From: Planctomycetota bacterium
Lineage (GTDB): Bacteria; Planctomycetota; UBA1135; UBA2386
Direction: 5' to 3'
Length of the DNA: 64,000 bases
NCBI GenBank assembly: GCA_044230075.1
Contig: JBGARS010000016.1
Span: 533 to 64,532, forward strand
Part shown: piece by piece, positions 36,486 to 49,473 of the stretch
Layout of the letters: the number at the start of each line of letters is the position of its first letter
Position numbering within the stretch: the stretch's first letter is position 1
The notes under the pieces: model-generated
The model's input: the letters and a program-made list of their open reading frames with translations, nothing else
Databases searched by the model: none
What the model was told of the DNA's origin: nothing
Made by a program: the position numbers and the translations under genes

Positions 36486-37748
36486 ATGCCCTCGAACACC
36501 CGCGAACTCCTGCTGCGTGGCCTTTGGGCAGGCCTGCTCGCGATCGGCGTCGGCCTCGTCGCGTACCTGGTGTCATGCCTCGTCGTTCCGCCCGACCAGG
36601 TGGCCAAGGGCTTCGGCATCGACTGGCAGCAGATGGCGCAGGATCCGTTCGCCCTCTCGGGTCGGTTGCCGAACCGGATCCTGACGCCGCTGCTGGCCTG
36701 GGCGCTCGGGTTCGGTAGCGAGCACTACGTGCTGTTCGTCCGCGGGCTGTCGGTGCTGCTGCTGGCGACCGTGTTCGTGTTCGGCCGCCGCCGCGGTCTC
36801 GGCGTGCCGGATGCCGCACTGATCACGCTGACGGTCGCGCTGATCTCGCCGGTGCAGATGTACAAGCTCAACTGGGTCGGCTACTGCGATGCGCTGACCT
36901 ACACGCTGTTCTTCTGGATGCTGCTGGCGGCAGGTTCGCCGTGGGTGTTCTGGAGCCTGTTCTTCTGCAACCTGCTGAATCACGAACTGGCGGGCTTCCT
37001 CCTGCCGTGGCTCTGGTTCGTGCGGCGCGAGGCGGACGACCGGTGGCGCGCCGACGTCGTCGGTGCGGGCGCGGCGGTCGTGCTGTATGCGGCCTACTAC
37101 TTCGCCGTGAAGGCGGCGGCGCCGACGCAGCTGTATTCGAACGACTACTTCCTCTCGCACCCGCTGTTCCCCGGCGGCGCGTTCGCGGTCGGCGTCACGG
37201 CGATCGTGCACTGGGTGGTCGCGTTCGGGCCGATCCTGGCCGTGCTCGCCTGGCACCAGCACGCGCCGACCCGCGGGCGCGAGCGCTGGCACCTATGGCT
37301 CGTGCTGCTCGGCATCGCCGTGATCTTCTGCATCGCGTTCGACTGGAGCCGGCACAGCAACCTGCTCGTGCTGCCGTTGGTGATCGCGTCGGTGCGCTTC
37401 CTGCAGCCGGGTCCACTGCAAGTGGGGCACCGCCTCGCGTTCGTCGGGCTGACCGCGCTCGGCGCCGCGCTGATGGTGGTCTGGCCGCCGTGGCCGTCGG
37501 TCTCCTGGCCGACCGTAGCGTTCACCGAGCCGCAGCTGCTGGTCGACACCCACGTGGTCGTATCCGGTCCCAACAACGAGCCGGGCTTCGGCACGCTGTC
37601 GGCGGCAACCAACGAGTGGCTGCCGCGCGTCTGGCCGACGTTGTGGCCGATCCTCTGCGTCGTCGTCGCGATCTGGTGCGGCGGCGCGCTGCTGGCCCGG
37701 TGGCGGCCAGCCGACGAACCCCTACAGCAATCCGCGCCGCTTCAGTAG
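36486..37748 (+). CDS. Multi-pass membrane protein, possibly GT-C-like
   Basis: About ten TM helices; early loop motif NRILTPLLA; flanks the other GT-C genes. Confidence 0.65.
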   Translation: MPSNTRELLLRGLWAGLLAIGVGLVAYLVSCLVVPPDQVAKGFGIDWQQMAQDPFALSGRLPNRILTPLLAWALGFGSEHYVLFVRGLSVLLLATVFVFGRRRGLGVPDAALITLTVALISPVQMYKLNWVGYCDALTYTLFFWMLLAAGSPWVFWSLFFCNLLNHELAGFLLPWLWFVRREADDRWRADVVGAGAAVVLYAAYYFAVKAAAPTQLYSNDYFLSHPLFPGGAFAVGVTAIVHWVVAFGPILAVLAWHQHAPTRGRERWHLWLVLLGIAVIFCIAFDWSRHSNLLVLPLVIASVRFLQPGPLQVGHRLAFVGLTALGAALMVVWPPWPSVSWPTVAFTEPQLLVDTHVVVSGPNNEPGFGTLSAATNEWLPRVWPTLWPILCVVVAIWCGGALLARWRPADEPLQQSAPLQ

Positions 37749-39884
37749 CGCCGTCGTGTCCAGCGGCCGGCCGCGGAACGCCGCGAACATCGCCATCGGG
37801 TCGCGCGTCAGGCCGCGCGACAGGATCGCGTCGCGGAACTGCGCACCGTTCTTGCCGGTCATGCCGCCGCGTTCCATCACCGCGGCGAACGCGTCCGCCG
37901 CCAGCGCTTCGCTCCACAGGTAGGCGTAGTAGCCGGCCGAGTAGCCGCCCGGCCAGACGTGCGAGAAGTAGGTGGTGCGGTAGCGCGGCGGCACCAGCGC
38001 GTTGGCGACGCCGGCCTTGGCCAGGGCCTCCTTCTCGAACGTCTCGACGTCCTTGACGACCGTGCCCGCCGGCAGCATGTGCCAGGCCATGTCGAGCAGC
38101 GCGGCCTCGATGTACTCGAGCGACGCGAAGCCCTGGCCGAACGTGCGCGCGCGGTGGATCTTCTCGATCAGCTCCTTTTGCATCGGCGCGCCGGTCTGCC
38201 AGTGCTTGGCACAGCGGTTGAGCACGGCAGGGTCGAAGGCGAAGTCCTCGTGGAACTGCGACGGGAACTCGACGAAGTCGCGCGGCACCGAGGTGCCCGA
38301 GATCATCGGGTAGCGCACCTTGCTGAACAGCCCGTGCACGCCGTGGCCGAACTCGTGGAACAGCGTCGTCACCTCGTCGAACGTGACCAGCGTCGGCTGG
38401 CCCGCGCTCGGCTTGCCGATGCTCAGCACGTTGACGACCACCGGCTTCGTTCCCAGCAGCCCGCTCTGGTCGACGAAGTTGTCCATCCAGGCGCCGCCGC
38501 GCTTCGCGGGCCGTGCGTAGTAGTCGGCGTAGAACAGGCCGATCGAGCTGCCGTCCCCATTCCCGGTGGCGCCGTCGAACACCTCGAACACGCGCACGTC
38601 GGGGTGGTAGACCGGCAGGTCCTTCCGCTCGCGCAGCTCGATGCCGTACATCTGCTTCGCCATGAAGAACAGGCCGTTCTTCAGCACCGAGTCGAGCTCG
38701 AAGTACTGCTTGACCTCGTTCTCGTCGAAGTCGTAGCGCTGCTTGCGCACCTGCTCGGCGACATACGACCAGTCCCACGGCGCCAGCTTGGTGCCCGGCT
38801 GCGTCTGGTCGAGATACGCCTGCAGTTCGGCGGCTTCGTCGTTGGCCTTCTTGACGATCGCCGGCGTCATGCTGGCGAGCATCTTCATCACGGCTTCGGG
38901 CGTCCCGGCCATCTGGTCGGCGAGCACGTAGGCAGCGTGGTTCGGGAAGCCGAGCAGCTGCGCACGCTCGGCGCGCAGCTCGGCGAGCCGCAGCACCGCG
39001 GCCTTGGTGTCGTTGTCGTTGCCGCGGCTGCAGCGTGCCAGCGACGCCTCGTAGACGCGCTGCCTCGTGCCGCGGTCCTGCAGCGACGACAGCACGCCCT
39101 GCGAACTGGGCAGCTGCAGCGGCAGCAGGAACATGCCCGGCTTGCCGGCCGCCTTGGCAGCGTCGGCGGCGGCGGAGATCGCACTGTCGTCGAGCCCGGC
39201 CAGCAGTTCCTTCGACTCGACCAGGACCGCGAGCGCTTTGGTGTCGGCGAGCAGCTGCTCCTGGAACTTCGTCGTCAGCTTCGACTGCTCCTCGTTGATC
39301 TTGCGCAGGCGCTGTTGGTCGGCGGCGCCGAGCAGCGCGCCGTTGCGCACGAAGCTGGTCTGGTAGCGCTCGACCAGGCGCTGCGTCTCGGGTGCGGTCA
39401 GCTCGGTGCGTGCGTCGTAGACGGCCTTGATGCGCGCGAACAACGGCGCGTCGAGGAAGATCGTGTCCTGGTGCGCCGCGAGCAGCGGTGCGACCTTGGC
39501 CTGGATCGCCTGGATCGTCGGGTTGGTGTTCGACTCGGTGAGGTTGAAGAACACCTTCGACACACGCGTCAGCAAGGCACCGCTCTTCTCGAGCGCCTCG
39601 ATCGTATTGGCGAACGTCGGTGGCTCCTTCTGGTCGGCGATCGCGCGCACCTCGGCCAGGTGCTGGCGCATGCCCTCTTCGAACGCGGGCAGGTAGTGCT
39701 CGTCGCGGATCCGGTCGAAGGGTGGCGTCTGGTAGGCGAGCGCACTCGGCGCGAAGAATGGATTGTCGGCCAGCGTGGCGGCCGCGGAGGCGTTGGCGTT
39801 CGGCATGGAGTTCGGTTCGCCGGTCGAGGTGGAACAGGCCGCGAGGGCCGCGGCGACGACAACGGCAGTGGATATCGGTCGCAT
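37722..39884 (-). CDS. dcp: M3-family peptidyl-dipeptidase Dcp, lipoprotein
   Basis: Lipobox LAAC; KRGGAWM, TLFHEFGHGVH, PRDFVEFPSQ, PPRYRTTYFSH, YSAGYYAYLWSE. Confidence 0.93.
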   Translation of the reverse strand: MRPISTAVVVAAALAACSTSTGEPNSMPNANASAAATLADNPFFAPSALAYQTPPFDRIRDEHYLPAFEEGMRQHLAEVRAIADQKEPPTFANTIEALEKSGALLTRVSKVFFNLTESNTNPTIQAIQAKVAPLLAAHQDTIFLDAPLFARIKAVYDARTELTAPETQRLVERYQTSFVRNGALLGAADQQRLRKINEEQSKLTTKFQEQLLADTKALAVLVESKELLAGLDDSAISAAADAAKAAGKPGMFLLPLQLPSSQGVLSSLQDRGTRQRVYEASLARCSRGNDNDTKAAVLRLAELRAERAQLLGFPNHAAYVLADQMAGTPEAVMKMLASMTPAIVKKANDEAAELQAYLDQTQPGTKLAPWDWSYVAEQVRKQRYDFDENEVKQYFELDSVLKNGLFFMAKQMYGIELRERKDLPVYHPDVRVFEVFDGATGNGDGSSIGLFYADYYARPAKRGGAWMDNFVDQSGLLGTKPVVVNVLSIGKPSAGQPTLVTFDEVTTLFHEFGHGVHGLFSKVRYPMISGTSVPRDFVEFPSQFHEDFAFDPAVLNRCAKHWQTGAPMQKELIEKIHRARTFGQGFASLEYIEAALLDMAWHMLPAGTVVKDVETFEKEALAKAGVANALVPPRYRTTYFSHVWPGGYSAGYYAYLWSEALAADAFAAVMERGGMTGKNGAQFRDAILSRGLTRDPMAMFAAFRGRPLDTTALLKRRGLL

Positions 39885-42398: not shown

Positions 42399-43802
42399 TC
42401 AGCGGCCGAGCACCAGCGCCCGGCGTACGGCGGCGAGTGGCGCCTCGTCGTCGAACTGCACGTGCCCACCTTCGAGCCGCACGCCGAGGTCGCGCCACAG
42501 CGACTGCAGGTCGTGCGGTCCGGGTGAGCTGCGCATCGCCGCGTAGAGATCGGTCAGCACCGTCGTGCCGGTGGCGTCGTCGGCCAGGCGCAGCACTTCT
42601 TCGATCGGCCACATCGTGGTGATGTTGCCGCCGGCGGCGACGATCTTGCGCATCGCGTCCTGCAGCGAGCGGCGGTTGTCGGTCAGGCGGCGGATCTCGA
42701 CGTCGGCGCGCAGGCAGAAGATCGCGCCGCCGTAGTAGGTGCGGCCCCAGCTGTGGTCGTCGTCGAGCCCAGAAGCCCCTGCTGCCGCCAGCCCCTGGTC
42801 GTAGTCCTCGAGCATCGCTTGCCACACCTGCTGCTCGGTGACGCGGCCGGCACGCGCCTGCAGCAGCGGTTCGATGTAGGTCGCGCTGCCTTCTTCGAGC
42901 CAGTGGTGCTGCGGCGCCAGCGACGGCAACGCCAGGTGCACCATCTCGTGGAACAGCACCCAGTCGCCGCGGAAGTCGTCGGCAGAGAACCGCAGCGGCA
43001 CGTCGACGAAGATGCGCGCGCCGCCGCCGATGCCGCGCGCGGAGCCACCGGTGATCGTGCGCCGATGGCCGGGCGTCACCATCAGCAGCAGGCGTGGCAC
43101 CGGGAAGGTGCCGCAGTAGTCGCGGATCGAGGCGGCGGCGTCGGCGACCCAGGCGTCCAGCGCGCGAGCGTTCGCTTCGCGGCGTGGACCGAGTTCGGCG
43201 ACCTCGATCGCGACGTCGCCGGACTTCACGGTGCGAGGCGCGAACGTGCCGAAGGTGCAGGGCGGCAGCATGCCCAGATCCTGCAGCGACCCGGCCCAGC
43301 CGGTCGTTGTCCGCGGCGAGGCACACAGGAACGTCTGCGCGCCGGCGTCGACCTGCAGCGTGAACTGCGTGTCGTCGGTGCCGTCCGCCGGCCGCAGCAG
43401 GAACGCGCCGAGCGAGCCTGTGAACTGGCCGCCACGCCGCGCTGCCACCTCGATGTCGTCGATGGCCGCAGAGGCCTCGCGGGCACGGAAGCGCCAGTGC
43501 AGCTCGCGCGGCAGCGCCGCGGTGGGAACGGCGAACGCGCCGTCGACCGGTTGCAGCCGCTGCGAGCCACCGTTGCCGATCGCTTCGACGTCGGCGAGGA
43601 ACGGTCGCGCTGCTGGCGCCACGGTGACGCGCAGCGACGGACCCGCCGGCAGCGTCAGCCGCACACCGAGGACCGCACCGTCCTCGGGCAGCGTGACGCG
43701 GTAGGCCCAGCCATCGCTGGGCGTGCTCGGCGCTGGGGCCGAGCAGGCGCTCCCGAGCAGCAGCGCGCAGGCGGCGGCGCGGAAGCGCGGGGTGGCGGAC
43801 AC
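42399..43802 (-). CDS. M61-like zinc metallopeptidase, probable lipoprotein
   Basis: LLGSAC lipobox-like; HEMVH...WLEEGSATY gluzincin motif; YYGGA..CL..D..IR. GTG start 7 nt after the upstream stop. Confidence 0.78.
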   Translation of the reverse strand: MSATPRFRAAACALLLGSACSAPAPSTPSDGWAYRVTLPEDGAVLGVRLTLPAGPSLRVTVAPAARPFLADVEAIGNGGSQRLQPVDGAFAVPTAALPRELHWRFRAREASAAIDDIEVAARRGGQFTGSLGAFLLRPADGTDDTQFTLQVDAGAQTFLCASPRTTTGWAGSLQDLGMLPPCTFGTFAPRTVKSGDVAIEVAELGPRREANARALDAWVADAAASIRDYCGTFPVPRLLLMVTPGHRRTITGGSARGIGGGARIFVDVPLRFSADDFRGDWVLFHEMVHLALPSLAPQHHWLEEGSATYIEPLLQARAGRVTEQQVWQAMLEDYDQGLAAAGASGLDDDHSWGRTYYGGAIFCLRADVEIRRLTDNRRSLQDAMRKIVAAGGNITTMWPIEEVLRLADDATGTTVLTDLYAAMRSSPGPHDLQSLWRDLGVRLEGGHVQFDDEAPLAAVRRALVLGR

Positions 43803-43809
43803 GGACCGA

Positions 43810-44226
43810 TCAGTGCTTGACCGGGACCGCGCAGCCGCCCTTGCCCTTGCACGAGTTCTTGCCGGCGCAGCCTGCGTCACCGGCCTTGCAGCCGCCCTGG
43901 CCCTTGCACGAGTTGGTGCCCTTGCAGCTGTGGTGCGCGGCGGTCGCGCAGCCACCCTTGCCCTTGCAGCTGTTCTTGCCGGCGCAACCGGCGTCGCCGG
44001 TCTTGCAGCCGCCCGTGCCCTTGCACGAGTTCAAGCCCTTGCAGGCGTTCTTGTCGGTGGTGGCGGCCGGCGTGGGGTTGGCGGCCGGCGTCGGCGCGGC
44101 GTGCGGGGCGGGCGTCGTGGTCGGCGCCGCTTCCTTCTTGCTGCAGGAGGTCAGCGACGTGGCGGCGCCGCCGAGCAGCAGGCCCGAGACGGCGGCGGAG
44201 AGGAGGACGGACTTGGTGGTCTTCAT
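43810..44226 (-). CDS. Cys-rich lipoprotein resembling BufA2-type bufferin precursors
   Basis: MKTTKS...SLTS|C lipobox; Pro/Ala/Thr linker; four C[KA]GxNSCKGxGGC units (12 Cys); HH and terminal H. Confidence 0.85.
   Translation of the reverse strand: MKTTKSVLLSAAVSGLLLGGAATSLTSCSKKEAAPTTTPAPHAAPTPAANPTPAATTDKNACKGLNSCKGTGGCKTGDAGCAGKNSCKGKGGCATAAHHSCKGTNSCKGQGGCKAGDAGCAGKNSCKGKGGCAVPVKH
43830..44043. repeat. 117-nt (39-aa) internal tandem duplication in the Cys-rich gene
   Basis: gcagccgcccttgcccttgcacgagttcttgccggcgca at 43830 recurs as gcagccacccttgcccttgcagctgttcttgccggcgca at 43947. Confidence 0.85.
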
Positions 44227-44258: not shown

Positions 44259-44390
44259 CGTCGGATGGACGAAGGGGCGCGAGTTACGACCGGTTTCCCG
44301 ACTCGGTCCCGGCGGCGCGGCAATATTCGGCGCGGGACAGGTCGCCGTCCAGCGGAGAGTCGTAACACCGGCCCGCTTCTCTCCACGTCG
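44259..44390. promoter_or_regulatory. Twin divergent motif GTCGTAAC-N19-CG(A/T)CG, possibly ECF-sigma promoters
   Basis: Minus strand: GTCGTAAC 44290-44283, CGACG 44263-44259. Plus strand: GTCGTAAC 44359-44366, CGTCG 44386-44390. Confidence 0.55.
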
Positions 44391-44404: not shown

Positions 44405-46099
44405 ATGAATCGTTTCCTTCGTCGTGCGCTGCTCGGCGCTCTGTCCGGTCTCGTCGCCAGCCCGATCCTGGGTCTGACCGTCGGTCGAGACACGGGGTCT
44501 TGGGTGGCGTTCCTCCTGGCGATCGTGGTCGCCAGCGCCCTGGCGCTGCCGCGGCGCCCGGCCGGCCGGCCGCGGCCCGAACTGCTGATGGAGGTCGCCG
44601 CGCTCGGTGTGCCGCTGTGGGCGCTGGTGGACGTGGTGCTGGTGCCGCTGCTGGCCGGCGATGCGCCGCGCTGGACCGCCGCGGCGATGCGAGACGTGTT
44701 CCCGGCGCTGGCCGGCTGGATGCTGTTCCAGGCGGCGGTCGGCCTCGTGCTGCATCTCGTCGATGGCCTCGCCGAGCGTTGGCTCGGCGCCGAGTTCGTG
44801 CCGGCGCCGCCGGTCGCTGGGGCGCCGCAGCGCATCCTCATTCTCGGCGGCGGCTTCGCCGGCGTGTCGACGGCCGAACACCTCGAACACCGGTTCGGCG
44901 CCAGCGCCGAGGTCGAACTGACCCTGGTCAGCGAGACCAACGCGATGTTGTTCACGCCGATGCTGGCCGAAGTCGCCGCCAGCAGCCTCGAGGCGGCGCA
45001 CATCACCAGCCCGCTGCGCACGGGGCTGCGGCGCACCGAGGTCGTGCGCGGCCGCGTCGTCGGCGTCGACCTCGAGCAGAAGGTCGCGCGCGTGCAGCTG
45101 GCGGTCGGTGACGAACGCGAACTCGCCTACGACCACGTCGTGTTCGCACTCGGCGCGGTGTCGAACTACCTCGGCATGGCCGGTGTCGAGGCGCACGCGT
45201 TCGACTTCAAGTCGATCGCCGACGCGATGGCGATCCGCAACCACGTCATCGACTGCTTCGAGCGCGCCGACGGCGAACAGGATCCGGTCGAGCGGCGGCG
45301 GCTGGTCACGTTCGTGGTCGCCGGCGGCGGCTTCGCCGGCGCCGAGCTGGCCGGCGGCCTCAACGACTTCACGCGCGGCATGCTGGCGTTCTATCCGCGC
45401 GTGCCGCGCGAGGAGCTGCAGGTCGTGCTGGTGCATGGCCGCGACCGCATCCTCAACGAACTCAGCGAACCGCTGGCGCTGCACGCGCAGCAGCGCATGA
45501 CCGAGCGCGGCGTCACGTTCCGGCTGGGCACGCGCCTGAAGGACGCGGATGCCGAGCGGGTCGTGCTGTCCGATGGCGAGGTCGCGTCGCGCACGCTGGT
45601 GTGGACCGCGGGCACGGCGCCGAATCCGCTGCTGCGCGCGCTCGGCGTCGAGGTCGACAAGCGCGGTGCCGTGCTGACCGACGCGATGATGCGGGTGAAG
45701 GGCCGCAGCGACGCGTGGGCGGTCGGTGATGCGGCATCGATCCCGAACGCCGCCACCGGCACGTCGTGTCCGCCGACGGCGCAGTTCGCGATCCGGCAGG
45801 CGGCGCAACTGGCGCAGAACCTGCAGGCGACGGTGCGCGGCCGCGCGCTGCGCCCGTTCCGCTTCGCGCCGCTCGGTGCTTTGTGCGTGGTCGGCCACCA
45901 CACCGCGTGTGCGGAGATCAAGGGCCTGCGCTTCTCGGGCCTGCTCGCGTGGGTGATGTGGCGTGGCATCTACCTCAGCAAGCTGCCGAGCATCGAACGC
46001 AAGGTGCGCGTCGTCGTCGACTGGACCATCGAGCTGTTCTTCCCGCGCGACATCGTGCAGACGATCGACCTGGCGCCGCGCACCGGGAGCAGCCGATGA
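44405..46099 (+). CDS. ndh: Type II NAD(P)H dehydrogenase-like flavoprotein with N-terminal membrane domain
   Basis: ILILGGGFAG, LFTPMLAEVA, YDHVVFALGA, VVAGGGFAGAELAG, WAVGDAA, PPTAQFA; about 125-aa hydrophobic N-terminus. Confidence 0.85.
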   Translation: MNRFLRRALLGALSGLVASPILGLTVGRDTGSWVAFLLAIVVASALALPRRPAGRPRPELLMEVAALGVPLWALVDVVLVPLLAGDAPRWTAAAMRDVFPALAGWMLFQAAVGLVLHLVDGLAERWLGAEFVPAPPVAGAPQRILILGGGFAGVSTAEHLEHRFGASAEVELTLVSETNAMLFTPMLAEVAASSLEAAHITSPLRTGLRRTEVVRGRVVGVDLEQKVARVQLAVGDERELAYDHVVFALGAVSNYLGMAGVEAHAFDFKSIADAMAIRNHVIDCFERADGEQDPVERRRLVTFVVAGGGFAGAELAGGLNDFTRGMLAFYPRVPREELQVVLVHGRDRILNELSEPLALHAQQRMTERGVTFRLGTRLKDADAERVVLSDGEVASRTLVWTAGTAPNPLLRALGVEVDKRGAVLTDAMMRVKGRSDAWAVGDAASIPNAATGTSCPPTAQFAIRQAAQLAQNLQATVRGRALRPFRFAPLGALCVVGHHTACAEIKGLRFSGLLAWVMWRGIYLSKLPSIERKVRVVVDWTIELFFPRDIVQTIDLAPRTGSSR

Positions 46100-47487
46100 A
46101 CGCCCATCCCTCCCTGTTGCTGCAACTGGGCGTTGCGACGCTGATCGGCTGCCTCGGCGGCGGTGCCTGCCTCGCGCTCGGCTACGCCGACGCGGTCTCC
46201 GGTCCGATCGCCGGCGCCGGCGGTGGACTCGTGTTCGCGTGGCTGCTGCAGGGTCGCGCGATCGACGCTGGCGAAGGGCTGATCTGGGGCCTCGCGTTCG
46301 CGTTCTTGTGGTGGCTCGCGCTGCCGGCCGGCCTGCTCGCCGCCGCGTCGGCCGGCGAGGCCGCCTGCCAGCTGTCGACCGTGCGCACGCAGGTGCCGAT
46401 GCTGATCGGCTACCTCGTGTGCCTCGGCGCACCGCTCGGACTGGGCATGGGGCTGTGGGCGTCCTGGCGGGGGAGTTCGGGGCGCAGCGTTTTCCGCGTC
46501 TCGCGCGCGCTGGTCGTCGGCGGCCTCGCCGGCCTCGTCGGCAGCCGCGTGTTCGCGTCGGTCGGCGACTCGATGCTGTCGCCGCTGCCCGGCGGCGATG
46601 CCAGCCGCGTGCTGCAGCACTTCGCTACCGCGATCGCGATCGGTGCCGTCTACGGGCTGCTGTTCCAACGCGCCGTGCGCGGGCTCGGCTCCTGCATGGG
46701 TTGGGGCATGGCCTACGGCATGTTGTGGTGGTGCCTCGGCCCGATGACGGCGAGCCCGCTGCTGCGCGGCGAAGCCATCGACTGGAGCGTGGATCGCGCG
46801 GCGTCGGCGTACGGGCTGTTCGTCGCGCATGTGTTCTTCGGCCTGCTGCTCGGGCTGCTCTACGAGGCGGTCGACAAGGTCTGGCAGGCGCTGTTCGTCG
46901 AGTCGGACCCGCTGCACCGCGAACCGGAAGGCATCGGCACGCGCTTCACGCTGGCACTGCTGTGGGGCGCGGTCGCGGGGCTGGCCGGCGGCCTCGTGTT
47001 CAGCCTGCCGATGCTCGACACCGGCATCCTGCCGTACGTCGCGAGCCTCGCCGGCGGCACCAGCGAATGGCTCGGCTTCGGCCTGCACCTGTCGATCAGC
47101 GTGCTGATCGGCATGCTCTACGGCGCGCTGTTCGCACGGCAGACGCCGGACCTCGGCATCGCCTTCGGCTGGGGCCTGCTGTACGGCTTGATCTGGTGGT
47201 ACCTGGGGCAGCTGACCCTGTTTCCGCACCTGCTCGGCGAAGCGTTCGACTGGTCGATCCTCGGCGCCAGCACCGCGCTGCCGTCGCTGGTGGGGCATCT
47301 CGCGTATGGCGCGACCACGGCGGGCGTGTTCGTCGCGTTCGAGTTGTGGTACGGCCGACGCCGCGCCGTCGATCCGCGGTATCGGGCCCGGGTGGCGCGC
47401 GCGCGGCGTGGTGGCGGCAGTCCCGCGGCGGCGCTGTGGGTGTTCGCGCTGGGACTTGGCGTGCTGCTGCCTATCGTGCTGGGCTGA
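46096..47487 (+). CDS. Polytopic membrane protein with three internal repeats and TM His pairs
   Basis: WG..(Y/F)(G/A)..WW repeated three times; His in QHF/AHV (repeat 2) and LHL/GHL (repeat 3). ATGA coupling to ndh. Confidence 0.8.
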   Translation: MNAHPSLLLQLGVATLIGCLGGGACLALGYADAVSGPIAGAGGGLVFAWLLQGRAIDAGEGLIWGLAFAFLWWLALPAGLLAAASAGEAACQLSTVRTQVPMLIGYLVCLGAPLGLGMGLWASWRGSSGRSVFRVSRALVVGGLAGLVGSRVFASVGDSMLSPLPGGDASRVLQHFATAIAIGAVYGLLFQRAVRGLGSCMGWGMAYGMLWWCLGPMTASPLLRGEAIDWSVDRAASAYGLFVAHVFFGLLLGLLYEAVDKVWQALFVESDPLHREPEGIGTRFTLALLWGAVAGLAGGLVFSLPMLDTGILPYVASLAGGTSEWLGFGLHLSISVLIGMLYGALFARQTPDLGIAFGWGLLYGLIWWYLGQLTLFPHLLGEAFDWSILGASTALPSLVGHLAYGATTAGVFVAFELWYGRRRAVDPRYRARVARARRGGGSPAAALWVFALGLGVLLPIVLG

Positions 47488-47495
47488 CGGGCGGC

Positions 47496-47520
47496 GGAAC
47501 GGTTGTTCTGCGGGCCCGTA
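47496..47520 (+). promoter_or_regulatory. ECF-type promoter candidate upstream of doxX
   Basis: GGAAC (47496-47500)-N16-CGTA (47517-47520). Confidence 0.45.
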
Positions 47521-47558
47521 TCAGCCGCGCCTCCACTCTCCAACCCTCGGTTCGTCGC

Positions 47559-48035
47559 ATGAGTTCTTCGCAAGGTCGTCTGCAGTCTGTCTACCGCCTG
47601 ATGGATTCGGTGTGCACGCCACTGGGCCAGCTGGTCGCGCGCATCGTGTTCGGCCAGGCCTTCCTGATCACCGGCTGGGGCAAGCTGCACAACCTCGACG
47701 GGGTCGTGAAGTTCTTCACCGACCTCGGCATCCCGGCCGCCAACGTGCAGGCGCCGTTCGTCGCCGGCGTCGAGTTCGTCGGCGGCATCTTCCTGCTGCT
47801 GGGACTCGGCACCCGCATCTCGGCGCTGTTCCTGGCCAGCACGATGGTGGTCGCGCTGTTGACTGCGCATCGCGCCGACTTCGAACCGGCACTGCTGTTC
47901 GACAAGAGCTTCGCCGACATCACGCCGTTGCCGTTCCTCGTCGCTCTGCTCTGGCTGATGGCGAAGGGTGGCGGGACGGTGAGCGTGGACCGACTGTTCG
48001 CATCGCGCTCGGGCGGCGGCTCGGGCGGGAAGTAA
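47559..48035 (+). CDS. DoxX-family membrane protein
   Basis: VARIVFGQAF...GWGKL, F..LGIP, VEFVGG.FLLLGLGTR, G.G.VSVD. Confidence 0.9.
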   Translation: MSSSQGRLQSVYRLMDSVCTPLGQLVARIVFGQAFLITGWGKLHNLDGVVKFFTDLGIPAANVQAPFVAGVEFVGGIFLLLGLGTRISALFLASTMVVALLTAHRADFEPALLFDKSFADITPLPFLVALLWLMAKGGGTVSVDRLFASRSGGGSGGK

Positions 48036-48038
48036 CGC

Positions 48039-49301
48039 CTACTTGCTGCCGCGGGCGTCGGGCGGCGTCGGCAACGTCGCGGCAGCCGGTGTTTCGCCGG
48101 CCGGCCGAGGCAGCGTGAGCGTCGAGCGCGCTGCGGTCACCGCACCGACCTCCGGCACCAGGAAGCCACCGTTCTGCAGGTAGAAGCGCTCGCCGCGCAC
48201 CCCCGCCGAACGATCGAGCCGCTGCGCGTCGCCGTGGCCGTCGTGCGTGAAGCGCGCCGTCGTCAGCGGCAGCCATTCGCCGGCCGTCGTGCGCGCCCAG
48301 GCGTTGCCGAACTCGCAGTCGCGCAGCAGATCGCCGTTGCTGCCGGAGAAGTTCTCGTTGAACGAGTAGAGCCCGCGCAGCAGCTTGCCGTCCTTCGGCG
48401 CGCGGAAGCTCGCGATCAGTCCCCAACGCTGTTCGGCATCGAACCAGAACCAGCCGGTGTACGTCGTGTGCGTGCCGTCGGCGGCCGCGTGCAGCAGGAA
48501 GCGGAACGTTCTGCCGAGCTGCCAATCGTGCACCAGGTGGCTGTGCCCGCCGGTGCCTTCGTGGCCGAAGCCGCTCGCGACCACGTCCTCGCCCTTCGCG
48601 ACCAGCGTGACCCGGTCGTCGGCCGCGACCTTGTCCCGATCCACGCCTTCGTTGCCGGCGTCCCACACGCTGAAGATCAGCCGCCGTTCGGTCGGACTGT
48701 TGACCTGCATGCCGAAGTAGCCGCGCTGCCAGCCCGCCGCCATGTAGTACGTGTAGAGCGGGTCCGTGCGCGGCGTGACCTCGCAGTAGAACCACTCGAT
48801 GTCCTGCTGGTGTTCCTTCGGCAGCGGGTAGCCGAGGTGCACCGACGCCGCGTTGCGCCGTTCGACGTCGCTCACGTGCGCGTTCGCGACCGCGGGGCCG
48901 GCCAGGTGGAGGCGCGCCAGCGAAGCGATGGGCGAGCCGTCCTTCGTGCGCACCGTCAGGCAGTGGTAGCCGGTGGTCGTGATCGCGAACGCCCGCTCAT
49001 CGTCGTCCGCGGTTGCGCACGCTGTGCCAGCTGGATGCGCCGCGCACGTGACCACCAGGCCCGCGGCCGCCACCTGGCTGGCGGTCCGGAGTTCGACCTG
49101 CAGCGCGCCGGTCTGCCGCAACAGCACGTAGAACCGCAGTTCTCCCTGGCAGTTCGCGACCGTGCCGTCGTCGTGCCGTTCCACCGCGTTGGCATCCGGG
49201 TGCGCGAACCCCGTGAACGCTGGCAGCGTCAGTTCCTGCGCGCGCGGCGCCGCGAGAGCCAGGGTCGGAAGCAGGCAGAGGAGCGCGGCAGACGGCCTCA
49301 T
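48039..49301 (-). CDS. Secreted DUF3472/DUF5077-like protein
   Basis: Signal peptide ...APRA|QE; ASVHL.Y, WFYCEV, TYYMA.GW..GYFGMQVNSPTERR.IFSVWD, SF.ENF. Confidence 0.82.
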   Translation of the reverse strand: MRPSAALLCLLPTLALAAPRAQELTLPAFTGFAHPDANAVERHDDGTVANCQGELRFYVLLRQTGALQVELRTASQVAAAGLVVTCAAHPAGTACATADDDERAFAITTTGYHCLTVRTKDGSPIASLARLHLAGPAVANAHVSDVERRNAASVHLGYPLPKEHQQDIEWFYCEVTPRTDPLYTYYMAAGWQRGYFGMQVNSPTERRLIFSVWDAGNEGVDRDKVAADDRVTLVAKGEDVVASGFGHEGTGGHSHLVHDWQLGRTFRFLLHAAADGTHTTYTGWFWFDAEQRWGLIASFRAPKDGKLLRGLYSFNENFSGSNGDLLRDCEFGNAWARTTAGEWLPLTTARFTHDGHGDAQRLDRSAGVRGERFYLQNGGFLVPEVGAVTAARSTLTLPRPAGETPAAATLPTPPDARGSK

Positions 49302-49323
49302 GCACGAGACACTACGCCGACGC

Positions 49324-49351
49324 TTGTTCGATCCGAGGCACCTGCTACCAT
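49324..49351 (+). promoter_or_regulatory. Sigma70-like promoter of tRNA-Pro
   Basis: TTGTTC-N16-TACCAT, 45 nt upstream of the tRNA. Confidence 0.5.
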
Positions 49352-49396
49352 TCCCGACCCCCTGAGCCCGCAAGGGCTCGAACGTCGGTCTTGGGT

Positions 49397-49473
49397 CGGA
49401 GCGTAGCGCAGCCTGGTAGCGCACCTGCATGGGGTGCAGGGGGTCGGAAGTTCAAATCTTCTCGCTCCGACCA
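49397..49473 (+). tRNA. tRNA-Pro(GGG)
   Basis: CGGAGCG acceptor stem pairing with CGCTCCG-A-CCA; anticodon arm CCTGC-ATGGGGT-GCAGG; T loop TTCAAAT; CCA encoded. Confidence 0.97.

What the first reader, a model, noticed from the sequence alone, without database searches (positions are those of the whole stretch)
42399..44226. Bufferin-like Cys-rich lipoprotein with no MNIO maturase, coupled instead to a metallopeptidase
Seen: a lipid-anchored 138-aa protein with four C[KA]GxNSCKGxGGC units from a 39-aa duplication, 7 nt upstream of an M61-like lipoprotein peptidase. Established: CxGxNxCKG precursors (BufA2 type) normally sit with DUF692/MNIO, DUF2063 and DoxX and become copper-binding RiPPs. 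No DUF692 or DUF2063 is in the window, though a DoxX is 3.3 kb away. Inference: an unmodified membrane-tethered metallothionein-like buffer, or a RiPP modified in trans and released by the peptidase.
Basis: partly seen in the sequence, partly recalled or inferred. Interest (0 to 1): 0.75.

Follow-up and report, generated by a model that had tools for sequence, protein, structure and literature searches.

The report
Bufferin precursor copy with dedicated peptidase
The cysteine-rich lipoprotein is a second copy of a known copper-binding "bufferin" precursor whose modifying enzymes sit on another contig, and the unnamed periplasmic metallopeptidase beside it recurs in such gene clusters across several phyla, where no dedicated protease has been described.

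Summary
Window 43810-44226(-) encodes a 138-aa lipoprotein with two 6-Cys Buf2-type bufferin domains. A 467-aa HExxH metallopeptidase (42399-43802, -) starts 7 nt after its stop.

"No MNIO maturase" holds only for the window. Contig C144 of the same genome carries a canonical bufA2-MNIO(BufB)-DUF2063 operon. Its own 12-Cys lipoprotein precursor is about 90% identical to the window copy in the Cys-rich core, so modification in trans is the simplest reading. 12-Cys, lipid-anchored and stand-alone Buf2 precursors are already published.

The peptidase link appears to be new. Pfam and NCBIfam have no model for this family, which has an M61/M1-like fold and at least 1483 clusters at 50% identity.
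- 42 of 80 homologues from one-genome-per-species contigs lie within 8 kb of buf genes.
- The usual order is bufA2-MNIO-DUF2063-DoxX-peptidase, seen in Acidobacteriota, Verrucomicrobiota, Planctomycetota and others.
- All 20 genomes with an unlinked copy still have a bufferin-type MNIO.
- In a Terriglobia-class sample, peptidase and BufA2 co-occur (odds ratio 58, p=6e-6).

I infer, without proof, that the peptidase processes the exported bufferin, probably its N-terminal linker. The precursor is ordinary; the peptidase makes this a new variant of a known system.

The parts
43810..44226 (-). bufA2 paralogue: a 138-aa lipoprotein precursor with two 6-Cys Buf2 domains (12 core Cys) behind a 33-aa Pro/Thr/Ala linker
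   Evidence: Translation. NF050166 at 53.4 bits. 117-nt duplication. 68% identity to the C144 precursor, with a near-identical core.
42399..43802 (-). 467-aa exported, probably lipid-anchored gluzincin metallopeptidase. It has an M61/M1-like N-terminal beta-sandwich and catalytic domain and no PDZ domain. HExxH lies at residues 285-289, with E303/E304 in WLEEG.
   Evidence: invariant H285, E286, H289, W301, E303, E304, Y309. AlphaFold2 model at pLDDT 87.8. Foldseek hits 4fgm, 8j9c and 7xyo at E 1e-18 to 1e-19. Synteny.
44259..44290 (-). Putative ECF-type promoter GTCGTAAC-N19-CGACG facing bufA2-peptidase
   Evidence: The strict motif occurs only twice in the 5.3-Mb genome, both in this intergenic region. 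It is conserved upstream of the bufA2 orthologues in L033, L034 and L036. Its -35 resembles the Caulobacter SigF site GTAACC-N16-CGAA (PMC3511200).
44359..44390 (+). Second copy of the same promoter-like motif, GTCGTAAC-N19-CGTCG, facing the ndh-like operon
44405..46099 (+). NDH-2-like FAD oxidoreductase with an N-terminal extension of about 140 aa before the Pyr_redox_2 domain; first gene of the divergent operon
   Evidence: Pyr_redox_2 at 157 bits and NDH2_C. The same trio follows bufA2-MNIO-DUF2063 in Terriglobia locus L093 and flanks bufA2-peptidase in L033 and L034.
46096..47487 (+). Protein with a weak DUF1440 match; its start overlaps the ndh stop (ATGA)
   Evidence: DUF1440 at 29.7 bits, below the cut-off. 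Start mapped.
47559..48035 (+). DoxX (BufD/HvfX-type) membrane protein
   Evidence: Pfam DoxX at 80 bits. NCBIfam HvfX family at 69.9 bits against a cut-off of 80.

Best explanation
The locus is the envelope-side half of a split Buf2 bufferin system.

Shown:
- Gene A is a 12-Cys, lipobox-bearing Buf2-type precursor.
- It is a paralogue of the precursor in a canonical bufA2-bufB(MNIO)-bufC(DUF2063) operon on contig C144 of the same genome.
- Gene B belongs to a large, unnamed family of exported M61/M1-like zinc metallopeptidases. This family is found almost only in genomes with bufferin-type MNIOs, and in about half of the cases lies inside or beside Buf2 clusters.
- The window locus also carries a divergent ndh-like/DUF1440-like/DoxX operon under an identical promoter-like motif.

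Inferred:
- The C144 BufB/BufC pair converts central cysteines of both precursor copies to thiooxazoles in the cytoplasm.
- The Sec and lipoprotein pathway exports and anchors the product.
- The peptidase then acts on the exported bufferin in the periplasm. The most likely action is cutting or trimming the long N-terminal linker between the anchor or signal-peptide site and the Cys-rich domain, which would release or shorten the copper-binding module.
For: Paralogy and the trans maturase. MNIO_BufB scores 351.5 bits against a cut-off of 310. DNA similarity is confined to the coding sequence.

The split layout is stable in relatives. G398 (the genome of L033) and G399 (the genome of L034) each have a bufA2-peptidase pair and, on another contig, a bufA2-MNIO pair.

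Peptidase-buf linkage:
- 42 linked, 4 partial and 34 unlinked among 80 species-level loci.
- 28 of the 46 linked or partial loci have the order bufA2-MNIO-(DUF2063)-DoxX-peptidase on one strand, and at least 6 other arrangements occur.
- Linkage appears in all three major clades of the peptidase tree.
- 20 of 20 genomes with an unlinked copy have a bufferin-type MNIO.
- Terriglobia-class counts are 7/12/1/100, Fisher p=6e-6.

The peptidase is exported. Window and short-form proteins have signal peptides or lipoboxes.

Fold and active site.

Linker clue: peptidase-adjacent precursor copies have linkers of 26-33 aa, against 14-17 aa in the MNIO-adjacent paralogues, in 4 of 4 pairs. In Terriglobia, peptidase-positive genomes carry the long-linker Sec-type subtype.

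Literature: stand-alone precursors are proposed to be modified from another locus (PMC12452194).
Against: No experiment or transcript data exist for any member. No RNA run holds the locus. The substrate of the peptidase is unknown.

Its most frequent immediate neighbour is DoxX (31 of 46 loci), not the precursor, so it may work with or on something else.

If it is an aminopeptidase like M61 and M1, an N-acylated lipoprotein would be a poor substrate.

The link is clade-restricted. Only 2 of 21 other BufA2-bearing genomes of the same phylum have the peptidase, and there it is not adjacent. It is therefore not needed for Buf2 function in general.

The strict promoter motif is absent from the roughly 270 bp available upstream of the C144 operon, so co-regulation of the two loci is unproven.

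Almost all the genomes are MAGs, so contig breaks limit the synteny calls.
Confidence: 0.55

Rival explanations
1. The peptidase belongs to the bufferin system but does not mature the precursor. Together with DoxX it could remove copper-damaged envelope proteins. Alternatively it could degrade apo- or copper-loaded bufferin for turnover or metal release.
For: Its commonest immediate neighbour is DoxX (31 of 46 loci). Some relatives have only a peptidase-DoxX pair (L110, and L030 and L031). Buf2 systems work without it in most lineages (PMC11626156 shows that signal peptidase suffices in Caulobacter).
Against: In the window's clade it is translationally close (7 nt) to a precursor copy rather than to DoxX. 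Peptidase-adjacent precursor copies differ systematically in their linker. Peptidase-positive Terriglobia carry a particular precursor subtype.
Confidence: 0.3
2. Gene A is an unmodified, membrane-tethered, metallothionein-like thiol buffer that never meets the MNIO, and the peptidase releases or recycles it.
For: There is no MNIO or DUF2063 in the locus. The literature leaves open that stand-alone precursors are not modified (PMC12452194).
Against: The core is about 90% identical to the precursor that sits with BufB/BufC in the same genome. 0 of 864 complete genomes with Buf2 precursors lack an MNIO (PMC12452194). In close relatives (L035, L037) the same precursor-peptidase pair lies directly beside MNIO-DUF2063.
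Confidence: 0.1
3. The peptidase adjacency is inherited synteny or chance, without a functional link.
For: Within Myxococcota-type long forms only 4 of 30 are linked. Many loci come from related soil MAGs.
Against: Linkage occurs in at least 5 phyla and at least 7 gene orders, and on both sides of the deepest splits of the tree. All 20 unlinked cases checked still co-occur with a bufferin-type MNIO. Co-occurrence is significant in an evenly drawn Terriglobia-class sample (p=6e-6). My own estimate of the chance of a random gene lying within 8 kb of a buf cluster is below 1%.
Confidence: 0.04

Closest known systems
Buf2 (BUF_6/12Cys, BufA2) bufferins of Caulobacter vibrioides and relatives (PMC11626156, PMC12452194)
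   Same: Signal-peptide-bearing precursor with the CxGxNxCKG-type 6-Cys module, here duplicated to 12 Cys. The genome encodes BufB-type MNIO, DUF2063 and DoxX. Lipoprotein forms (about 16%), 12-Cys forms (about 10%) and stand-alone precursor genes are all described.
   Different: The system is split over two loci, each with its own precursor copy. An exported metallopeptidase, an NDH-2-like oxidoreductase and a DUF1440-like membrane protein accompany the envelope-side copy. The published model uses only signal peptidase for proteolytic maturation.
M61 glycyl aminopeptidases (PDB 8j9c, 7xyo, 4fgm) and M1 aminopeptidases
   Same: N-terminal beta-sandwich plus thermolysin-like catalytic domain. 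HExxH and a WLxEG glutamate are present. These are the best structural matches (Foldseek E 1e-19, TMq 0.52-0.65).
   Different: About 14% identity. Pfam M61 scores below threshold. There is no PDZ domain. HExxH-x14-E replaces the M1 spacing of x18. No conserved acidic residue lies where M1 has GAMEN. The short forms lack the N-terminal domain altogether.
Leader-trimming M1-family peptidases of class III lanthipeptides (AplP type; recalled from memory, not tested here)
   Same: A zinc peptidase of the M1 clan used to remove an N-terminal region of a RiPP.
   Different: Those enzymes are cytoplasmic and often encoded outside the cluster. This one is exported and would act after Sec export on a small folded protein.
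adjamnio-III HExxH proteins next to MNIO|nitroreductase fusions (PMC12452194)
   Same: A HExxH protein encoded beside an MNIO gene.
   Different: Those 11 proteins have no predicted signal peptide, precede an MNIO-nitroreductase fusion and come from non-bufferin clusters. The present family follows DoxX in Buf2 clusters and is exported.

Membership tests
Buf2 / BufA2 bufferin precursor | N-terminal export signal (Sec or lipoprotein) | tested here: met
   Signal peptide with lipobox LTSC at residues 25-28. Orthologues and paralogues keep it.
Buf2 / BufA2 bufferin precursor | 6 or 12 conserved Cys in the Buf_6/12Cys pattern | tested here: met
   12 core Cys in two 39-aa repeats. This matches the description in PMC12452194.
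Buf2 / BufA2 bufferin precursor | Scores over the curated cut-off of NCBIfam NF050166 (60 bits) | tested here: not met
   53.4 bits in two stretches. The C144 paralogue scores 59.8. The model is built for single 6-Cys domains, so the shortfall is marginal.
Buf2 / BufA2 bufferin precursor | Encoded with MNIO (BufB) and DUF2063 (BufC) | tested here: inconclusive
   Not met in the locus or on the window's contig. Met in the genome on contig C144. Met locally in relatives L035 and L037.
Buf2 / BufA2 bufferin precursor | Cys-to-thiooxazole modification and copper binding | not testable with these tools
   Needs mass spectrometry and metal-binding assays.
Peptidase family M61 | Pfam PF05299 over the gathering score | tested here: not met
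   15.6 bits against 22. Short forms score 13.7-14.6 or show no hit.
Peptidase family M61 | Gluzincin active site (HExxH plus a downstream Glu) on an M61/M1-like fold | tested here: met
   H285, E286, H289, E303 and E304 are invariant in 18 sequences. Foldseek top hits are M61 structures at E 4e-19 to 4e-18. The profile matches 8j9c at E 0.011.
Peptidase family M61 | C-terminal PDZ domain | tested here: not met
   No PDZ hit in Pfam. The model's C-terminus is helical with one hairpin.
Peptidase family M1 | GxMEN exopeptidase motif and HExxH-x18-E | tested here: not met
   The strand before the HExxH helix reads GGSARG-GGGARI with no conserved acidic residue. The Glu lies 14-15 residues after the second His. 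This is a sequence-level judgement and was not checked on superposed coordinates.
ECF sigma (SigF-like) promoter | -35 GTAAC(C) and -10 CGAA at N16 | tested here: inconclusive
   The -35 GTCGTAAC is present twice and is unique in the genome. The downstream element is CG(A/T)CG at N19, not CGAA at N16.

The most novel reading that the evidence does not exclude
This unnamed M61/M1-like family is a dedicated periplasmic processing protease of Buf2 bufferins. It would clip or trim the N-terminal linker after export, releasing lipid-anchored forms. That would make a post-export proteolytic step part of bufferin biosynthesis in soil and sludge Acidobacteriota, Verrucomicrobiota and Planctomycetota.
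Probability: 0.35. Interest if true: 0.75.

Novelty: new variant of a known kind. Interest (0 to 1): 0.6.

Why it matters
Bufferins are a recently defined and very widespread class of copper-binding RiPPs. Their accepted gene set is precursor, MNIO, DUF2063 and DoxX, with signal peptidase as the only protease.

Recent papers state that no protease is encoded near such clusters, and that it is unclear whether the products are cut further (PMC12538549, PMC13097082).

A peptidase family with thousands of members is invisible to Pfam-based cluster surveys, yet it tracks Buf2 clusters across phyla. It gives a concrete candidate for such a step. It also assigns a likely biological context to a large family of "hypothetical" soil proteins, and it can be tested with ordinary co-expression and mass spectrometry.

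Tried and rejected
- **Link to the lipid anchor or the 12-Cys form.** I asked whether the peptidase goes specifically with either. It does not. Acidobacteriota and Verrucomicrobiota partners are 6-Cys precursors with ordinary signal peptides.
- **General Buf2 partner in the window's phylum.** It is not. Only 2 of 21 BufA2-bearing genomes have it, and there it is not adjacent.
- **Shared promoter with C144.** I looked for the strict promoter motif upstream of the C144 operon. It is absent; only a CGTATC variant is shared with L035 and L037. Co-regulation remains a guess.
- **Second MNIO on C94.** It is divergent (111 bits) and sits among genes without family hits. It is probably another RiPP system and not the maturase.
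- **Literature.** The bufferin papers held in the searchable library (PMC11626156, PMC12452194, PMC8692599, PMC13097082, PMC12538549) mention no dedicated peptidase. One search for M61 structure papers gave nothing useful.
- **Expression data.** No RNA run holds the locus.

Full report
**What is in the window.** Gene A (43810-44226, minus strand) encodes 138 residues: a signal peptide ending in the lipobox LTSC, a 33-residue Pro/Thr/Ala-rich linker, and 12 cysteines in four CxGxNSCKGxGGC-like units. Tandem Repeats Finder shows a 117-nt period (1.9 copies, 87% matches) and an inner 57-nt period. The protein is therefore two copies of one 6-Cys module. NCBIfam's BufA2 model scores 53.4 bits against a cut-off of 60.

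Gene B starts at a GTG 7 nt after the stop of gene A and ends at 42399. It has FHEMVH and WLEEGSATY and only a sub-threshold Pfam M61 hit. Contigs from four independent sludge or wastewater metagenomes cover both junctions at 99% identity or more.

**The missing maturase is elsewhere in the genome.** A whole-genome search for the MNIO family finds two hits, neither on the window's contig. On contig C144 the order is precursor, MNIO, DUF2063, all on one strand.
- The MNIO passes NCBIfam's BufB equivalog cut-off (351.5 against 310).
- The precursor there is also a 12-Cys lipoprotein. It is 68% identical to gene A overall and nearly identical through the Cys-rich region.
- DNA similarity begins at the start codon and ends at the stop codon.
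- The second MNIO, on C94, is divergent and lies among genes with no family hits.

The published surveys already describe 12-Cys Buf2 precursors (about 10%), lipoprotein forms (about 16%) and a sizeable proportion of precursor genes away from any MNIO. They suggest that these are modified from another locus, and none of 864 complete genomes with Buf2 precursors lacked an MNIO (PMC12452194). Gene A on its own is thus an ordinary member of a known family, and "no MNIO" is a window artefact.

**The split layout is stable.** Two relatives have the same bufA2-peptidase pair divergent from ndh-like/DUF1440-like/DoxX genes: L033, labelled Planctomycetota and probably the window's genus, and L034. Their genomes carry a separate bufA2-MNIO pair on another contig. 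In two further relatives (L035, L037) MNIO and DUF2063 lie convergent, directly after the peptidase. The ancestral state in this clade was probably one cluster.

**The peptidase is the interesting part.** It has no Pfam or NCBIfam model over threshold. Sources call it "hypothetical" or "predicted metalloprotease with PDZ domain".

An alignment of 18 homologues down to 35% identity keeps H285, E286, H289, W301, E303, E304, Y309 and E311 invariant, and most sequences have a lipobox-like cysteine near the N-terminus. The AlphaFold2 model (pLDDT 87.8) has an N-terminal beta-sandwich, a thermolysin-like catalytic domain and a helical tail. Its best structural matches are M61 peptidases (4fgm, 8j9c, 7xyo; E about 1e-19), followed by M1 aminopeptidases.

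It differs from those families in four ways:
- It has no PDZ domain.
- The Glu follows the second His by 14 residues, not 18.
- There is no conserved acidic residue where M1 has GAMEN.
- A short form of about 300 aa lacks the N-terminal domain but keeps its own signal peptide.

The family is large. It has 1483 clusters at 50% identity with E<=1e-30, and the short form saturates a search of soil metagenome proteins.

**Linkage to bufferin genes.** I fetched the 80 best loci out of 545 hits in a one-genome-per-species collection and searched their flanks for the buf genes.
- 42 loci carry a precursor and/or MNIO within 8 kb. Four more carry only DoxX or DUF2063, three of them at contig ends. 34 carry none.
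- 28 of the 46 have the order bufA2-MNIO-(DUF2063)-DoxX-peptidase on one strand, and at least six other orders occur.
- Linked loci come from Acidobacteriota, Verrucomicrobiota, Planctomycetota, Myxococcota, Methylomirabilota and Eremiobacterota-type MAGs. They fall in all three major clades of the peptidase tree.
- All 20 genomes whose peptidase is not next to buf genes have a bufferin-type MNIO elsewhere.
- An evenly drawn sample of 120 genomes of a Terriglobia-type class gives 7 with both, 12 with BufA2 only, 1 with peptidase only and 100 with neither (odds ratio 58, p=6e-6).

The reverse does not hold. Most Buf2 systems lack the peptidase, including 19 of 21 other BufA2-bearing genomes of the window's phylum. 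The peptidase depends on the bufferin system, and the bufferin system does not depend on the peptidase.

**What it may do.** The peptidase is exported, so it meets the bufferin only after export. The link is not tied to lipid anchoring or to 12 Cys, because acidobacterial partners are 6-Cys precursors with ordinary signal peptides.

Two patterns point to the N-terminal linker. In 4 of 4 paralogue pairs the peptidase-adjacent copy has a linker of 26-33 residues, against 14-17 in the MNIO-adjacent copy. In Terriglobia the peptidase-positive genomes carry a Sec-type subtype with a long linker and a GGC[AR]TDG tail, whereas peptidase-negative genomes mostly carry other subtypes.

I therefore favour linker clipping or trimming, which in the window organism would release the module from its anchor. 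This step is inference. The commonest immediate neighbour of the peptidase is DoxX (31 of 46 loci), so a role with DoxX, or in turnover, is a serious rival.

**Regulation.** I confirmed that GTCGTAAC-N19-CG(A/T)CG occurs exactly twice in the genome, once facing bufA2-peptidase and once facing the ndh-like operon. It is conserved upstream of the orthologues. Its -35 resembles the Caulobacter SigF site that drives the buf operons there (PMC3511200; PMC11626156). The C144 operon has only a weaker variant in the 270 bp available.

**Comparison with the literature.** None of the bufferin or related MNIO papers I could read mentions a dedicated peptidase. Two say that no protease is encoded nearby, or that proteolysis of the product is an open question. 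The published cluster survey relied on Pfam names and a 10-bp intergenic rule. That approach would miss a family with no Pfam model.

**Verdict.** The precursor is known biology. The conserved peptidase partner is a new variant of the bufferin system and is worth a bench test.

Noticed in passing
Own genome contig C144, locus L008 5381-6283 (+), convergent with the bufA2-MNIO-DUF2063 operon: A secreted EF-hand plus iodothyronine-deiodinase-like protein (PF00837, E=1e-13) has an in-frame TGA in the motif FGSYT-U-PPFR. A perfect 7-bp hairpin (CGCAGCC-GGTC-GGCTGCG) follows about 20 nt downstream. It is probably a selenoprotein with a bacterial SECIS element.
   Followed up: partly
Own genome contig C94:117639-118436 (-), locus L009 5625-6506: A second, divergent MNIO (PF05114, 111 bits) whose neighbours have no Pfam hits. 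It may be a different, uncharacterised MNIO RiPP cluster.
   Followed up: partly
Window 44405-48035 (+); also L033, L034 and L093: An NDH-2-like oxidoreductase with an N-terminal extension, a DUF1440-like protein (start overlaps the ndh stop) and DoxX form an operon. The same trio directly follows bufA2-MNIO-DUF2063 in a Terriglobia genome (L093). These two genes may be further accessory members of some Buf2 clusters.
   Followed up: partly
Loci L121-L127 and L132 (Terriglobia-class genomes without the peptidase): A BufA2 subtype, mostly 12-Cys, begins MDRRKFTQVMGAAVAGMVAGSKA. This looks like a twin-arginine (Tat) signal rather than the Sec signal described for bufferins.
   Followed up: no
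Window 43815-43975: Assembler word depth in four sludge metagenomes is several-fold higher over the 3' repeat of gene A than over its flanks, and contigs break at 43828-43872. This fits the near-identical paralogues and internal repeats collapsing in short-read assemblies.
   Followed up: no
Window 37722-39884 (-) and 48039-49430 (-): A secreted M3 oligopeptidase (416 bits) and a DUF3472 protein (301 bits) flank the region. No link to the buf genes was seen in relatives.
   Followed up: no
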